DNA of 64,000 bases from a virus (taxonomy: Duplodnaviria > Heunggongvirae > Uroviricota > Caudoviricetes): positions 246,418 through 310,417 of IMG/VR virus record IMGVR_UViG_3300009784_000001. One strand, written 5' to 3'. Each line of letters starts with the position of its first letter. Position 1 is the stretch's first letter. Made by a program: the position numbers and the translations under genes. The notes beneath the pieces are model-generated. The model had not been told where the DNA came from. It saw nothing but the letters and a program-made list of their open reading frames with translations, and did not search any database. Below are positions 50,189-62,548 of the stretch, piece after piece.

Positions 50189-50437
50189 ATGACAATAAAA
50201 GAAAGAGAAAAATTTAATAGATATTTGGTAGATAGATATGATCAATGCTATCCAAGAGTGAAAAGAAGTGAAAGTAGAAATATTCCTATAGGAAAAGAAA
50301 TATCTTATAAATACACTTGTTATCCATTATATTTTGATTCAGATAATTATGCAAGATTTCTTGTTAATGAAAATAATTTCGATTTTATTAATTACATGAC
50401 AGATGATGAATGGGAATATCATAATTTTGAAATATGA
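50189..50437 (+). CDS. Hypothetical protein
   Basis: ORF track. Confidence 0.55.
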   Translation: MTIKEREKFNRYLVDRYDQCYPRVKRSESRNIPIGKEISYKYTCYPLYFDSDNYARFLVNENNFDFINYMTDDEWEYHNFEI

Positions 50438-51342
50438 GTAAAAATTTAACACAAGAGCAAATAATTGAACAATTTAGAAAAATACATGGGAATAAGTATG
50501 ATTATTCTAAAGTAAACTATATAAAAAAGCATTCTGAAGTTTGTATAATTTGCCCAATTCATGGAGAATTTTGGATGCAACCAAATAATCATATTGTTGG
50601 AAAAAATAATTGTCCTAAATGTTCAAAAAAGTATAAATGGACGACAGAAGAATGGATAGAAGAAGCAAAGAGAATACATGGAAATAAGTATGATTATAGT
50701 AAAGTTAAATATATTGATGCTCATACTAAAGTATGTATTATTTGTCCTGAGCATGGTGAGTTTTGGCAATCTCCTACTAATCACACACATTTAACACAAC
50801 ATAGAGGGTGCCCTAAATGTAATAAGGGTATAAAATATACACAAGATGAATGGATTGAGCTAGCTAATAAAAGACATGTTGGAATTTATGATTATTCTAA
50901 AGTAAACTATAAAGATTCAAATGCAAAAGTATGTATTTTTTGTAAAAAGTGTAATAATGAATTTTGGCAGCTTCCAAATGCACATATGGCAGGGCAAGGA
51001 TGTCCTCATTGTAAAAAATCTAAAATAGAAATAATTGTTGAAAAGATTCTAAATAGTAAAAATATATTATATTTTTATGAATATAGAAAATTTAAATGGT
51101 TAAAAAATAAAAAGTTATTAGAATTAGATTTCTATCTTCCAGATTATAATATTGCTATTGAATGTCAAGGAAGACAACATTTTGAAGAAAGAAAATGGTT
51201 TGGAGGTATAAAGCAACTTAATATTCTTCAAAATAATGACAGAATTAAGAAAGAATTATGTGAAAAGAACAACCTTTCCTTATATTATATAAATTATAAT
51301 GATAATGTAGAAGAAAAAATGAAAGAAATACTTAGTCTTTAG
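50434..51342 (+). CDS. Free-standing CPxHGEF-repeat PD-(D/E)XK endonuclease
   Basis: Three repeats plus LELDFYLPDYNIAIECQGRQHF. Confidence 0.85.
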   Translation: MSKNLTQEQIIEQFRKIHGNKYDYSKVNYIKKHSEVCIICPIHGEFWMQPNNHIVGKNNCPKCSKKYKWTTEEWIEEAKRIHGNKYDYSKVKYIDAHTKVCIICPEHGEFWQSPTNHTHLTQHRGCPKCNKGIKYTQDEWIELANKRHVGIYDYSKVNYKDSNAKVCIFCKKCNNEFWQLPNAHMAGQGCPHCKKSKIEIIVEKILNSKNILYFYEYRKFKWLKNKKLLELDFYLPDYNIAIECQGRQHFEERKWFGGIKQLNILQNNDRIKKELCEKNNLSLYYINYNDNVEEKMKEILSL

Positions 51343-51628
51343 CTGATGGAATTTTATTATATTTTTTCATAATATTTTCAAGCATTTTTTTATGATTTTC
51401 TTCATCACTAATTAATTCTTGTATAATATTAATATCTTCTTCATCATTTGTATATTGTAGTAAATTCAAATAAATTCTTATTGCATCTGCCTCTGATTTT
51501 ATTGCATTGGAAATCAATTCAGCTAATTTTAAATTAGGAGTTGAATATATTTTATTATCATTATAAAATTCTTCTTCATTTAATTTTCTTAAAACTGAAT
51601 TTGTTATTTCATTAATTATATTCTTCAT
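51332..51628 (-). CDS. Ferritin/rubrerythrin-like small protein (start MKNIINE at 51628)
   Basis: AIKSEADAIRIY..ELISDEENH di-iron half-site; TATTTATA upstream. Confidence 0.7.
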   Translation of the reverse strand: MKNIINEITNSVLRKLNEEEFYNDNKIYSTPNLKLAELISNAIKSEADAIRIYLNLLQYTNDEEDINIIQELISDEENHKKMLENIMKKYNKIPSAKD

Positions 51629-51651
51629 GTGCTTATTTTTATTATAAATAT

Positions 51652-52773
51652 TTAATTGGATGACATACATTTTTTTATTTTTGATATATCCCATCCTGTT
51701 TTTTCTTGAATTAATTTTTCTGTAAAATCGCTACTTAATGGCCCATCACTAAATCCCAAAAAGGTTATGTAATTTATTTTTTTCTTTGTACATATTTCTT
51801 CAATTCTATTGTATAAATCAATTATAACATTTTTATTTGTTCCAATGATCATATCAAAAATATGATCATCATCTTTTATAAGTAGTTTATTTTTATAGAT
51901 AGATATTTGTTTTGATTCATTATTATTTAGTATAAGGTTATCTAAAATGAAAGTTATATTTTTCCTATTTCCATCTCTCTTAAATGAATTATAACCATAT
52001 ACATGATAATCTTCTTCATAATTATATATTTGCTTATTTAGTATAATCCACTTTTTTATTTCTCTTTTTTTATTACCCCATTCAGTTTTATCTAAATCGT
52101 GAGTAGCTTCAACTATATTTTCAATTAATTTTCCATATTCATTTGGAAATTTTGAGTGTTCTAAATCCTCTTCATTCAATTTTAATAATAATATTTCATA
52201 TTTTCGTTCCCAATCATTCCTTTGAGAATATTTTTTAGATACAATGATATTTTTATTATCCTCTATAAATTTATCATAATCATTAATAGCACTTTTTTTA
52301 TCAAAATATCTACCAAGTTTTTTCCTTTCTTTACCATTTAATGTAACTATTATTCTATATTTACATTCTGATTTTTTCTTTTTCTCAATATGAAAGCCAT
52401 TTCTTCTTGCCTCATTCATTAGCTTTACAAGGTATTTACGTTTACATTCATTTGAACAAAATTTCACTTCATTTCCTTTTTTTAAGTATTTCAACTTAAA
52501 TTCTTTCCCACATTCATCACAAACATAAGTTTTTAGATATTTTCCTCTTTTTCTTTTTATAACACCTTCTTTTATAAGTTTTTCTTTATTTTTATAATAT
52601 CTTGCCAATCCTTGCCTTCTTTCAATTATTTTTTCATATTTCTCTTTATCTTCTTCATTTAATATTGTTAATTCTCTTTTTGATATCACTTCTTCTCCTT
52701 TTTCTATTCTTCCAATTAACTCTTTTTTTCTTTTTTCCATTACAATTTCAAAATTTCCTTTTTTTACTGCCAT
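51652..52773 (-). CDS. Basic hypothetical protein with a CxxC..CxxxC zinc ribbon
   Basis: CDECGKEF..FCSNECK. Confidence 0.65.
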   Translation of the reverse strand: MAVKKGNFEIVMEKRKKELIGRIEKGEEVISKRELTILNEEDKEKYEKIIERRQGLARYYKNKEKLIKEGVIKRKRGKYLKTYVCDECGKEFKLKYLKKGNEVKFCSNECKRKYLVKLMNEARRNGFHIEKKKKSECKYRIIVTLNGKERKKLGRYFDKKSAINDYDKFIEDNKNIIVSKKYSQRNDWERKYEILLLKLNEEDLEHSKFPNEYGKLIENIVEATHDLDKTEWGNKKREIKKWIILNKQIYNYEEDYHVYGYNSFKRDGNRKNITFILDNLILNNNESKQISIYKNKLLIKDDDHIFDMIIGTNKNVIIDLYNRIEEICTKKKINYITFLGFSDGPLSSDFTEKLIQEKTGWDISKIKKCMSSN

Positions 52774-53602: not shown

Positions 53603-53633
53603 TTTGAAATTAAAAAATAAATTTATATCTTTG
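53603..53633 (+). promoter_or_regulatory. Bacteroidota-type promoter at the start of the RNA island
   Basis: TTTG-N19-TATCTTTG. Confidence 0.8.
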
Positions 53634-53742: not shown

Positions 53743-53864
53743 TCCCCTGTAGCTCAGTTGGTTAGAGTACTTAAAATGAAGTTTTCTGGGTAGGAAATGT
53801 TCAGCAATATCAATCAAAATCGCTGTTAACGAAGGGGTCGGCAGTTCGAGTCTGTCCAGGGGTT
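53743..53864 (+). ncRNA. tRNA-Asn(GTT)-like RNA with a 48-nt insert (53773-53820) in the anticodon stem
   Basis: Removing the insert restores CTTCG-CTGTTAA-CGAAG; D and T arms canonical; T1:T72 mismatch, T73. Confidence 0.85.
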
Positions 53865-53911: not shown

Positions 53912-53968
53912 AGAAAACATACAGCATTTTTTATCAATTCAACCATAGGAAAGAAAAAGTGTTTTCTG
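53912..53968 (+). ncRNA. Stand-alone stem-TACAGCA RNA module, copy 1
   Basis: AGAAAACA-TACAGCA...TGTTTTCT-G. Confidence 0.75.
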
Positions 53969-54194
53969 AAATAAAAAGATAGGGTTCACTGAGTTAAAGT
54001 GAATAGTTCAATACCAAGGTGAGGGAAGTGTTGAATGATAATATAAGTCCTTACATGTAATATAACTACATATCTAACATGTTTTATATATAGTCATGAA
54101 TGTTATAAAACCTCTGGAACATTTTTTTTTATTAGGGTAGTTTTCATTGGATTAGACCCTGACTTTATGGTAAGTTATATTTACCTTAATTTAT

Positions 54195-55168: not shown

Positions 55169-55289
55169 TGAGAATTAGCTCAGTTGGTAGAGCAAAGGTA
55201 TTATAAAAAGTTTCTTGAATAAGAAATGTTCAGCAATATTTAAAAATGGGAACTTTATGTCAGCAGTTCGAGCCTGCTATTCTCATCCA
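55169..55289 (+). ncRNA. tRNA-like RNA (Pro TGG-like) with ~45 extra nt in the anticodon loop
   Basis: Acceptor TGAGAAT/ATTCTCA-T-CCA, canonical D/T arms, stem AAGGT/ACTTT enclosing 52 nt ending TGGGA. Confidence 0.8.
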
Positions 55290-56179: not shown

Positions 56180-56210
56180 TTTGGTAACTCAAAAATAATT
56201 CTTATCTTTG
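56180..56210 (+). promoter_or_regulatory. Bacteroidota-type promoter
   Basis: TTTG-N19-TATCTTTG. Confidence 0.8.
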
Positions 56211-56231: not shown

Positions 56232-56419
56232 CGAGAGGTAGCTTAATGGCAGAGCGCAGTCGGAATGTAAAATTGCAATTTAATGTTCTTAAACAAGACT
56301 GAATGGTGTGCTGTGAAAGTTTGAAAAAAGTGAATACAAACTGAATGGGGTTGCAAACCTTGCAAGTTATGATGCTTGAAGTAGAATGAGTAATTGAGGT
56401 TCAATTCCCACCCTCTTGA
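56232..56419 (+). ncRNA. 188-nt tRNA-like RNA with greatly expanded anticodon and variable regions
   Basis: Acceptor CGAGAGG/CCTCTTG-A, D arm GCTT-AATGGCA-GAGC, CAGTC/GACTG stem, GGTTCAATTCC T loop. Confidence 0.7.
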
Positions 56420-57895: not shown

Positions 57896-57968
57896 GTACC
57901 TGTGGCAGAGTGGTTTATGCACTTGACTGTTAATCAAGACTACGAAGGTTCGATCCCTTCTGGGTACG
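57896..57968 (+). tRNA. tRNA-Asn(GTT)
   Basis: CTTGA-CTGTTAA-TCAAG, G73. Confidence 0.92.
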
Positions 57969-59787: not shown

Positions 59788-59841
59788 AGAAAACATACAG
59801 CATTTTTTCAATTTTCAATGGGAGAAAAAAAGTGTTTTCTG
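59788..59841 (+). ncRNA. Stand-alone stem-TACAGCA RNA module, copy 3
   Basis: AGAAAACA-TACAGCA...TGTTTTCT-G, near copy of 53912. Confidence 0.75.
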
Positions 59842-59850
59842 AAAAAAATA

Positions 59851-59932
59851 AGGAAAGATACAGCAATGTTAAATGGTTAAAAGAAAATTCTGTAAAAATT
59901 TTTTGAAAAGGTTCAAATCCTATTCTTTCCTG
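59851..59932 (+). ncRNA. Stem-TACAGCA RNA module, copy 4, enclosing a tRNA-Tyr-like anticodon arm and T arm
   Basis: AGGAAAGA-TACAGCA..AATGGTTA..AAAATT-CTGTAAA-AATTTT..AGG-TTCAAAT-CCT..TCTTTCCT-G. Confidence 0.75.
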
Positions 59933-59968
59933 TAAATTTGAAAAGTTAAATTAAAAAAAATAGAAAAA

Positions 59969-60371: not shown

Positions 60372-60442
60372 CATAAAAATATTTTTCTTAATAACTATAC
60401 TTTTTTAGTTCGATGCGATATTTATATATAAATGTAAATATT

Positions 60443-61384
60443 ATGATAAAGGAACGAGAAGAATTAATTATTAAAATAATAAAAGAGAGTAATAGTATTT
60501 CAGAGGTTTGTAAAAAGTTAAATATATCTGTTACTAATGGTAATTATATAACAATAAAAAAAATAATAAAAAACAATAATTTAGATATATCTCATTTTAA
60601 AAGAGTTTCACAAAATTCTAATAAAAAGCGATATACGTTACAAGAAATTATGGTTGAAAATTCATCATACACCAATGTAAATAAATTAAAGAAAAGATTA
60701 ATTAAAGAAGGGATTAAGGAAAATAAATGTGAAATATGTGGAATAAGTAAATGGAATGGAGAACAAATTTCTTTACAATTGCATCATAAAAATGGTATCA
60801 CAAGTGATAATAGAATAGAAAATTTACAAGTACTTTGTCCCAATTGTCATTCTCAAACACATAACTATGGTGGGAAAAATATAGATAATAAAATAAGAGA
60901 AGATAGATTTTGCAGAATATGTGAGAAAAAGTTAAACGATACACAAAAAAAGTATTGTTCAATCAATTGCTATAATAAAAGTATTGATGATAATATTCCA
61001 ACTAAAAACAAAATCTTATCTTATATAAAAAATTATACAACACTTGTAGAATTATGTAAAAAAGAAAAAATTGATAGAGGGACATTTAGAAATTGGTGTA
61101 ATAAAAGACAATGTATAGATGATGTAAATTTTTTGTTGAAAAAAAATTTTGAAATAAAAATTTTAAATATTGAAGTTAAGAATGATTTATATGAAAAAAG
61201 ATGTGAATTAATAAATAAATTTAAAAAATTTGGGTCATTCTTACAAGTAGGTAAATATTATGGAGTATCCGATAATATGATAAGAAAAAGATGTAAAAAA
61301 ATTGGTTTACCTGTTCATACAAAAGAAATGATAAAATTAATAAATTCGGAAGAATGTCAGAGTGCTTTATTGTACAACTCTTGA
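60443..61384 (+). CDS. Free-standing HNH homing endonuclease within the tRNA array
   Basis: CEICG..LQLHHKNG..DNRIENLQVLCPNCHSQT; the stop codon is the anticodon of the next tRNA. Confidence 0.88.
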   Translation: MIKEREELIIKIIKESNSISEVCKKLNISVTNGNYITIKKIIKNNNLDISHFKRVSQNSNKKRYTLQEIMVENSSYTNVNKLKKRLIKEGIKENKCEICGISKWNGEQISLQLHHKNGITSDNRIENLQVLCPNCHSQTHNYGGKNIDNKIREDRFCRICEKKLNDTQKKYCSINCYNKSIDDNIPTKNKILSYIKNYTTLVELCKKEKIDRGTFRNWCNKRQCIDDVNFLLKKNFEIKILNIEVKNDLYEKRCELINKFKKFGSFLQVGKYYGVSDNMIRKRCKKIGLPVHTKEMIKLINSEECQSALLYNS

Positions 61385-61443: not shown

Positions 61444-61516
61444 GGGATAGTAACATAGAAGTTTATGTGCTGGTCTGAAAAACCAGAAATGCTTGAGGCG
61501 GTATCAGCCTATCCCA
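61444..61516 (+). tRNA. tRNA-Phe(GAA)
   Basis: CTGGT-CTGAAAA-ACCAG; atypical T loop GGCGGTA. Confidence 0.8.
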
Positions 61517-61702: not shown

Positions 61703-61773
61703 GCTGTGTTAGTATAAGAGTATTACATTGGCTTTGTAACCCAAAAATGGGGATGCGATTTCCTCACACAGCT
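61703..61773 (+). tRNA. tRNA-Thr(TGT)
   Basis: TTGGC-TTTGTAA-CCCAA, acceptor GCTGTGT/ACACAGC. Confidence 0.85.
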
Positions 61774-61782
61774 CTAAATTAA

Positions 61783-61854
61783 GGGCTTATCATATAATAG
61801 CTATTATGCCACCCCTGCAAGGTGGTTATTGGAGTGCAATTCTCCATAGGTCCA
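61783..61854 (+). tRNA. tRNA-Ala(TGC) with C33
   Basis: G3:T70 wobble, A73, CCACC-CCTGCAA-GGTGG. Confidence 0.85.
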
Positions 61855-61933: not shown

Positions 61934-62548
61934 ATGAAAAAGATAGAATTAGTTTATAATAATTTAGATATTAATAATTTACCAGGTGAAATATGGGTAG
62001 ATGCTTATGATTTTGATGGTTATTATGAAGTATCCAATATGGGGAGGATAAAAACTTGTGAAAGAGAAGTCAGTAATGGAGTTGGGACAAGAATAGTAAT
62101 TAGTAAAATTAGGAAACAGGTTTTAGGTAAAGATGATAGATTAACTTGTCCCTTTACTATAAATAATGAAAGTATATCTATAAATGTTTCAAGGTTAATC
62201 TTTCAATCTTTTAACCCCACTAAGATTTTAGATAATTTAGTGGTTTCACATAGAAATAGATGTAAATGTGATAATAGATTGAATAATTTAAAAGTGGAAA
62301 CATTACAAAACAATCATTTTGATAATGTTCATAAGTATAATTATGGCTTAAAAGAACATTTGTTAAAACTGAATAAAATTAAACATGAAAAATTTGTCAA
62401 TACAATAAAAAGCAAAGTTTGTAATAAATGTGGAATAGAAAAAGATATAATAGAATTTGTATATAAAAGAGAAGGAAAAAGAGATGAAAATAGAAATATA
62501 TGTAAAATGTGTAGAAATAAACGTGAAAGAAATAGAATTAAAAAATGA
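61934..62548 (+). CDS. NUMOD4-HNH homing endonuclease
   Basis: GEIW....FDGYYEVSNMGRIK (NUMOD4); VSHRN..KCDNRLNNL. Confidence 0.88.
   Translation: MKKIELVYNNLDINNLPGEIWVDAYDFDGYYEVSNMGRIKTCEREVSNGVGTRIVISKIRKQVLGKDDRLTCPFTINNESISINVSRLIFQSFNPTKILDNLVVSHRNRCKCDNRLNNLKVETLQNNHFDNVHKYNYGLKEHLLKLNKIKHEKFVNTIKSKVCNKCGIEKDIIEFVYKREGKRDENRNICKMCRNKRERNRIKK

What the first reader, a model, noticed from the sequence alone, without database searches (positions are those of the whole stretch)
53743..53864. tRNA-Asn mimic with a 48-nt hairpin-TTCAGCA module in its anticodon stem
Seen: a complete cloverleaf interrupted between positions 29 and 30 by AAAATGAA-GTTTTCT-GGGT-AGGAAAT-G-TTCAGCA-ATATCAATCAAAAT. 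It is far too short for a group I or II intron and shows no obvious bulge-helix-bulge. The acceptor end (T1:T72, T73) lacks the G73 of the intact tRNA-Asn at 57896. Inference: either an unrecognised small tRNA intron needing a protein endonuclease/ligase, or a permanent protein-binding module fused to a tRNA mimic (decoy or Y-RNA-like tether).
Basis: partly seen in the sequence, partly recalled or inferred. Interest (0 to 1): 0.85.

Follow-up and report, generated by a model that had tools for sequence, protein, structure and literature searches.

The report
tRNA-shaped partner RNA of Ro60-like protein
The 48-base insert in this giant phage's asparagine-tRNA look-alike is not junk and probably not an intron: it is a conserved hairpin-plus-CAGCA "handle" found on hundreds of tRNA-shaped RNAs, mostly encoded next to a ring-shaped Ro60-like protein (DUF2828) that this phage also encodes, so it is most likely an undescribed cousin of bacterial Y RNAs.

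Summary
Observation confirmed base for base. The window lies in a complete 360-kb jumbo phage from termite gut, probably infecting Bacteroidota. The insert (7-bp hairpin, then TTCAGCA) recurs in a second tRNA shell (55169) and, circularly permuted, in four free-standing RNAs nearby. An RNA-only pattern search retrieved over 200 distinct relatives in phages and bacteria. 94 of 143 strict loci carry a DUF2828/DUF7788 gene in the same few kb, always on the same strand (about 1.3% of phage records hold such a gene). This phage has the gene 57 kb away; its model matches Ro60 (Z 19.6). Splicing is unlikely: half the family cannot rebuild an anticodon arm, anticodons switch between 97-99% identical bodies, and A32 is common. 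Best reading: a permanent, unspliced Ro60-like docking arm on a tRNA mimic. It works like YrlA, but is drawn in true tRNA register and has a different motif. It fails Rfam YrlA membership. Binding and expression are inferred, not shown; no RNA run was listed. I found no paper on the family. This scan has met the family before on other DNA (e.g. e1-5338952, e1-3311346).

The parts
53603..53633 (+). Bacteroidota-type promoter-like site (TTTG, 19 nt, TATCTTTG), 110 nt upstream of the element
   Evidence: pattern occurs 122 times in the genome vs 23-43 in shuffles; consensus from own knowledge; function inferred
53743..53864 (+). The finding: tRNA-shaped RNA (acceptor, D, T arms, GUU anticodon loop) carrying the handle in the 5' strand of the anticodon stem. 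Its presumed partner, the 533-aa DUF2828/DUF7788 Ro60-fold gene, lies outside the window at G000:357212-358813 (+), L001:1456-3057
   Evidence: partner gene
53773..53820 (+). 48-nt insert between tRNA positions 29 and 30: A-rich linker, hairpin, motif, A/U-rich linker
   Evidence: family inserts are 37-57 nt
53781..53806 (+). Handle: 7-bp hairpin (53781-53798) plus G and TTCAGCA (53800-53806); predicted docking site of the Ro60-like protein
   Evidence: binding inferred
53821..53834 (+). Retained anticodon stem-loop half (2 inner pairs, loop CTGTTAA, then AAG pairing back to 53770-53772)
53912..53969 (+). Free-standing copy 1: terminal stem, TACAGCA, inner hairpin (circular permutation of the handle)
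   Evidence: z -2.7; best but non-significant hit of the Rfam Dictyostelium Class I model in this genome
54356..54485 (+). Free-standing copy 2, long interior
   Evidence: closing stem read from the sequence, the MFE fold is ambiguous
55169..55289 (+). Second tRNA-shaped RNA with the same handle (hairpin 55210-55227, TTCAGCA 55229-55235), no rebuildable anticodon arm, encoded CCA
59788..59842 (+). Free-standing copy 3, near-duplicate of copy 1
   Evidence: z -2.8
59851..59933 (+). Free-standing copy 4: handle stem replaces the acceptor stem; degenerate D-like loop, GUA anticodon stem-loop and T arm inside
   Evidence: (weak tRNA hit, E 0.82)

Best explanation
The element is a non-coding, unspliced tRNA mimic that is the RNA partner of the phage's Ro60-like (DUF2828) protein. 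Step 1 (shown): it belongs to a large conserved family defined by tRNA shell + 7-bp hairpin + WCAGCA. Step 2 (shown): the family is genetically tied to DUF2828 genes, and that protein has the Ro60 ring fold. Step 3 (inferred): the RNA is transcribed at the head of the tRNA cluster and trimmed like a tRNA by RNase P and 3' nucleases. [quoted passage not shown] Step 4 (inferred, about 45% among functions): the particle presents a tRNA elbow and a freely variable anticodon loop as bait or sensor in the tRNA-damage conflict, that is towards host anticodon nucleases and RNA repair or decay enzymes, while the ring protects it or tethers a ligase or PNPase. The free-standing copies are the same handle with other cargo, like the YrlA/YrlB pairs.
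For: Same handle in six RNAs of this window in two permutations, with a compensatory change between the two tRNA-borne hairpins (C-G to U-A). 244 distinct candidates, 206 after filtering, from RNA-only searches. Hairpin of 7 bp or more in 142 of 214 vs about 15 expected after shuffling; all 7 pairs covary (alignment pre-selected for pairing). Ro-like gene in 94 of 143 strict loci, all on the same strand, 91 within 2 kb, median 463 nt. It is present elsewhere in 33 of 49 further genomes and in 10 of 11 near-complete virus records. Background: 666 of 50,697 phage records. Model pLDDT 89; the top 13 Foldseek hits are all Ro60/Rsr; VIA Z 19.6, rmsd 4.2 over 435 residues, next non-Ro hit 10.5. Phage Moogle has the same handle closing an RNA in exact YrlA order (V, T arm, acceptor hairpin, D arm) beside its DUF2828 gene. 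Listeria P100-like phages have three copies just upstream of the gene. RtcB in 8 and a WYL protein in 15 fetched loci. This phage has RNA ligase and CCA-adding/poly(A) polymerase family genes. Precedent: M. smegmatis YrlA is cut by RNase P and gets CCA, giving a two-piece version of this topology (PMC4201824); a phage Ro60 binds Yrl RNAs and host PNPase (PMC12135203).
Against: No binding, expression or processing data for this RNA. In this genome the protein gene is 57 kb away. The motif is not the GNCGAA of proven Y RNAs. One complete virus record (G036) has a longer, atypical element and no detected Ro-like gene. Many retrieved loci are related gut-Clostridia phages, so counts overstate independence. 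WCAGCA invariance is built into the search. No repair gene is a constant neighbour, so step 4 is weak.
Confidence: 0.75

Rival explanations
1. A new small tRNA intron: DUF2828 or a partner recognises the hairpin+CAGCA, a nuclease excises it and an RNA ligase yields a working tRNA (possibly a conditional reserve).
For: Removing 53773-53820 gives a 5-bp stem and a canonical C32-U33-GUU-A37-A38 loop; 103 of 206 relatives can be rebuilt likewise; the genome has RNA ligase genes.
Against: The other 103, including the second copy at 55169, cannot. The site wobbles between 28/29 (37 cases) and 29/30 (26). A32 in 47 of 103 vs 13 of 1096 ordinary tRNAs in the same loci. G73 in only 10 of 36 whose anticodon calls for it (rule from own knowledge). 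Anticodons differ between 97-99% identical bodies (L076 TCT vs L322 GTT; L263 GAT vs L267 GGT). The product here would have U1.U72 and U73, and an intact Asn tRNA exists at 57896. The handle also occurs where nothing could be spliced (free-standing forms).
Confidence: 0.1
2. Ro60-like partner RNA whose tRNA shell is only a stability and processing scaffold (or a ribosome or translation-factor tether); the anticodon loop is a drifting vestige and no decoy role exists.
For: Half the family lacks the loop; free-standing copies carry little or no tRNA cargo; Chen et al. raise this role for YrlA.
Against: Where present, the 7-nt loop keeps U33 and a purine 37 on a covarying stem while the triplet varies, which suggests something reads the loop shape.
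Confidence: 0.3
3. Decaying tRNA pseudogene with a chance or selfish insertion.
For: U1.U72 mismatch, U73, weak overall fold (z -1.0), HNH-endonuclease-rich region.
Against: Hundreds of relatives with conserved geometry and covariation, strict linkage to one protein family, second copy in the same genome.
Confidence: 0.04

Closest known systems
YrlA/YrlB bacterial and phage Y RNAs with Rsr/Ro60 (Rfam RF02553; Chen et al. 2014, PMC4201824; phiLo Ro60, PMC12135203)
   Same: tRNA-like D/T/acceptor domain joined to a stem plus short single-stranded motif on the anticodon side; several RNAs per genome; encoded beside, and on the same strand as, a Ro60-fold gene.
   Different: Circularly permuted: real tRNA 5' and 3' ends, handle closed by a loop. 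Motif WCAGCA(A), not GNCGAAN0-1G. An anticodon stem-loop is often retained. The partner is DUF2828/DUF7788 (9-14% identity to solved Ro60s), not Pfam TROVE. No Rfam YrlA hit at this element.
Dictyostelid Class I RNAs (Rfam RF01414; PMC7919456)
   Same: Terminal stem followed by CCTTACAGCAA, variable interior, A-run, 3' strand ending in CTG: the layout of the free-standing copies here.
   Different: Eukaryotic, 42-65 nt, no tRNA shell, known binder is an RRM protein. The Rfam model scores the best copy here only 15.1 bits vs cut-off 41.5, E 1.15. A link to DUF2828 was not tested.
Archaeal/eukaryotic endonuclease-spliced tRNA introns (BHB) and bacterial group I/II tRNA introns
   Same: Interrupt a tRNA gene in or near the anticodon arm; archaeal non-canonical sites such as 29/30 exist (own knowledge).
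   Different: No BHB pattern, 48 nt is too short for a ribozyme, site and identity not conserved, half the family yields no tRNA.

Membership tests
YrlA-type Y RNA (RF02553) | GNCGAAN0-1G motif near the 5' end | tested here: not met
   Absent from all six copies; WCAGCA stands in its place
YrlA-type Y RNA (RF02553) | T arm - acceptor hairpin - D arm order inside a terminal Ro-binding stem | tested here: not met
   This element is in normal tRNA order; the YrlA order is met by a family member in phage Moogle
YrlA-type Y RNA (RF02553) | Rfam score above gathering (69 bits) | tested here: not met
   No hit on the element; best in relatives 33.7 bits, across tandem copies
Y RNAs in the wide sense | tRNA-like domain with conserved D and T loops | tested here: met
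Y RNAs in the wide sense | Encoded with, usually beside, a Ro60-fold protein | tested here: met
   Family: 94/143 loci; this genome has the gene 57 kb away; fold match
Y RNAs in the wide sense | Bound by the Ro60 orthologue in vivo or in vitro | not testable with these tools
   Needs pull-down or EMSA
Functional tRNA-Asn after splicing | GUU anticodon in a 7-nt loop on a 5-bp stem | tested here: met
   Only after removing 53773-53820
Functional tRNA-Asn after splicing | G73 discriminator and paired 1:72 | tested here: not met
   U73, U1.U72; rule from own knowledge
Endonuclease-spliced tRNA intron | Bulge-helix-bulge or fixed splice site with conserved junction | tested here: not met
   Site varies 28/29 vs 29/30; junctions merely A/T-rich
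Endonuclease-spliced tRNA intron | Spliced product in RNA | not testable with these tools
   Needs RNA data; see Tried and rejected
Group I/II intron | Ribozyme core | tested here: not met
   48 nt, no Rfam intron hit
Dictyostelid Class I RNA (RF01414) | Terminal stem plus 11-nt motif at Rfam cut-off | tested here: inconclusive
   Motif and layout resemble; score 15.1 bits, E 1.15 for the free-standing copy

The most novel reading that the evidence does not exclude
DUF2828 proteins are a second branch of Ro60 with their own modular RNA class. One CAGCA handle is grafted onto tRNA parts in at least three topologies, and the tRNA-register form displays a fast-switching anticodon loop as an adjustable decoy against anticodon nucleases. 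The same handle may be the origin of the orphan Class I RNAs of social amoebae.
Probability: 0.3. Interest if true: 0.85.

Novelty: new variant of a known kind. Interest (0 to 1): 0.65.

Why it matters
It gives a specific, testable RNA ligand to a protein family of unknown function that is common in large phages (Felix O1-like, P100-like, GAP32-like, large Vibrio phages) and gut Clostridia, several with lab-tractable hosts. It widens Y RNAs beyond the GNCGAA motif, which Chen et al. expected. It explains a recurrent annotation oddity, 110-125-nt 'tRNAs with an intron' that tRNA finders miss or mis-call. The switching anticodon loop bears on the open question of why phages carry tRNA-like genes. 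The resemblance to dictyostelid Class I RNAs offers a lead on their unknown origin.

Tried and rejected
Pfam TROVE and RtcB in this genome: no match. Exact-pattern searches for close copies of this element: none; blastn in GenBank phages gave only short chance-level hits. The search for related loci with the single protein: nothing. PDB sequence search: no Ro60 hit, cGAS noise. Sequencing runs: no RNA holder listed. The one joint skipping the insert (53772-53832, 11 other letters, side 22, depth 4) is most likely an ordinary tRNA of another organism, not a spliced form. The idea that the protein represses its own start codon through the handle: the motif ends at the ATG here (fold weak, z -0.6) but is absent upstream of the gene in the related phage genomes G034, G035 and G037, so it is not general. 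The top non-coding transcript of Listeria phage CKA15 (26,236-26,727; PMC12282133) maps about 700 nt upstream of the CAGCA copies, so it does not prove their expression. Archaeal hits of the pattern (e.g. L122, L127, L165) look like ordinary anticodon-loop introns and were removed. Sigma-70 promoter scan: at chance level. Literature searches for the motif, DUF2828, DUF7788, Ro60+phage+tRNA-like and Class I RNA+Ro60 found no description of the family. The Burroughs/Aravind 2016 and Sim 2020 reviews could not be fetched under the ids I tried, and subscription papers are not searched. No complex prediction was run: the tool does not take RNA.

Full report
Setting. The window is G000:246418-310417 of a 359,943-nt virus record with terminal repeats, rated complete, 26% GC, held by termite-gut runs. 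A Bacteroidota-type promoter pattern occurs 122 times vs 23-43 in shuffles (consensus from own knowledge), so the host is probably a Bacteroidota. One such site (53603-53633) lies 110 nt before the finding, which is thus the first RNA of the tRNA region.

Observation. Rfam tRNA covers 53743-53864 at 36.2 bits. The insert 53773-53820 holds a 7-bp hairpin and TTCAGCA. A Logan contig spans the stretch without differences (possibly the same sample).

The module is repeated. A second tRNA shell at 55169-55289 has the same hairpin+GTTCAGCAATAT, with one C-G pair replaced by U-A and one U.G by C-G. It has an encoded CCA but no anticodon arm that could be rebuilt. Four free-standing RNAs (53912, 54356, 59788, 59851) read GAAA-stem, TACAGCA, cargo, complementary strand, TG: the same helix and motif closed from the other end. 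In 59851 the cargo is a degenerate D-like loop, a GUA anticodon stem-loop and a T arm. A weak seventh copy ends at the start codon of a 533-aa gene at G000:357212-358813, outside the window.

The protein. Pfam TROVE and RtcB are not found, but DUF2828/DUF7788 is (PHROG 850 'RNA-binding protein'). Its AlphaFold model (pLDDT 89, pTM 0.88) matches only Ro60/Rsr structures among Foldseek hits with E<=0.001 (13 of 13). VIA-align gives Z 19.6, rmsd 4.2 over 435 residues with the Ro autoantigen (1yvr); the best unrelated chain scores 10.5. The fold is established; RNA binding is inferred from it.

The family. A cloverleaf filter left 244 distinct candidates, 206 after removing weak and archaeal-intron cases, from gut Clostridia, Bacteroidota, Meiothermus, Saccharibacteria and many phages, often in arrays of two to four. 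A hairpin of 7 bp or more just before the motif is present in 142 of 214 vs about 15 in shuffles. All 7 pairs show two-sided changes (that alignment was pre-selected for pairing, and the motif is invariant by construction). A model built from 73 outside relatives ranks the two window elements first, 81.6 and 73.4 bits, above every true tRNA. Rfam has no family for them beyond partial tRNA hits.

Linkage. Of 143 loci with a strict element, 94 hold a DUF2828-type gene in the same few kb: all on the same strand, 85 downstream, 91 within 2 kb. Of 49 further genomes whose fetched locus lacked it, 33 have it elsewhere, including 10 of 11 near-complete virus records. Only 666 of 50,697 GenBank phage records hold a relative. 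Many loci are related, so the counts are not independent, but the link crosses phyla. Cultured phages agree. Moogle has several free-standing copies after its DUF2828 gene, one enclosing V arm, T arm, acceptor hairpin and D arm, the YrlA order. Listeria P100-like phages have three copies directly before the gene and RtcB 1.3 kb after it. The Rsr-like CKA15_055, which by position and size is this gene, was detected in purified particles (PMC12282133). The handle's 3' strand is more alike within a locus (56%) than between loci (36%), more so than the acceptor stem (48 vs 41%), as expected from co-adaptation to a local protein or from local duplication.

Intron or permanent arm. For: excision here gives a canonical Asn anticodon arm, 103 of 206 relatives can be rebuilt, and the phage has RNA ligase and CCA-adding family genes. 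Against: the other half cannot be rebuilt; the site wobbles between 28/29 and 29/30; position 32 is A in 47 of 103 vs 13 of 1096 ordinary tRNAs of the same loci; only 10 of 36 have the G73 their anticodon calls for; 26 of 107 pairs at least 80% alike differ in amino acid, including 97% and 99% identical pairs. A decoding tRNA cannot freely swap anticodons on a fixed body without mischarging or loss of charging (established knowledge). Here the product would also have U1.U72 and U73, and an intact tRNA-Asn exists at 57896. I put splicing at about 10%.

Mechanism. Most likely the RNA is cut out of the cluster transcript like a tRNA, keeps the arm as a side branch of the anticodon stem, and docks the Ro60-like ring through hairpin+CAGCA. 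The precedent is close: M. smegmatis YrlA is opened by RNase P and gets CCA, which yields in two pieces the topology encoded here in one (PMC4201824), and phage phiLo Ro60 binds its Yrl RNAs and host PNPase (PMC12135203). What the particle does is open. A loop that keeps U33 and purine 37 while its triplet changes, plus RtcB (8 loci) and WYL (15 loci) neighbours, favour a bait, sensor or repair role in tRNA-cutting conflicts. A mere stability scaffold is the main rival. None of binding, expression or function was shown here.

Known or new. It works like a YrlA-type Y RNA but is not a member: motif, order of arms and Rfam score all fail. The free-standing form resembles dictyostelid Class I RNAs (stem, CCTTACAGCAA, 3' CTG), a lead taken from e1-5339483; the Rfam model's best hit in this genome is indeed 53913-53968 but is not significant. 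Ten literature searches found no description of the family; two relevant reviews could not be fetched. The scan has reported the family on other genomes; those notes were read after my own reading was fixed and are not counted as evidence.

Verdict. Real, conserved and widespread; a new variant of the Ro60/Y-RNA kind; interest 0.65.

Noticed in passing
window 56232-56419 (+): tRNA-like shell (acceptor, D arm, T arm) around about 110 extra nt, no CAGCA, behind its own promoter-like site at 56203; missed by ARAGORN and Rfam, 25 bits with model R1.
   Followed up: no
G000:52286-52411 (-), outside the window: Lone tRNA-like gene with a 6-nt anticodon loop and a roughly 55-nt variable region, encoded CCA, no CAGCA.
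   Followed up: partly
G000:355056-358813, outside the window (L001): Cassette of an isochorismatase/nicotinamidase-like gene (by eye; no Pfam hit), a vWA gene and the Ro-like gene; the first two recur with the Ro-like gene in several gut phages.
   Followed up: partly
window 59868-59923, 61444-61516, 61703-61773, 61783-61854: tRNA or tRNA-like genes found by Rfam but not by ARAGORN.
   Followed up: no
window 53970-54030: Two tidy hairpins directly after free-standing copy 1, possibly another small RNA (z -1.75).
   Followed up: partly
window 50434-52773, 60413-61384, 61934-62548: HNH-type endonuclease genes in and around the tRNA cluster; the ORF at 60413-61384 ends inside tRNA-Ser 61348.
   Followed up: no
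L118:3490-3981 (Listeria phage 805405-1): About 490-nt ORF-poor stretch matching the most abundant transcript region of phage CKA15 (PMC12282133), unrelated to the CAGCA copies; not identified.
   Followed up: partly
L260 (G036), similar in L284: Longer variant of the element in a complete 98-kb phage in which no DUF2828 gene was detected.
   Followed up: no
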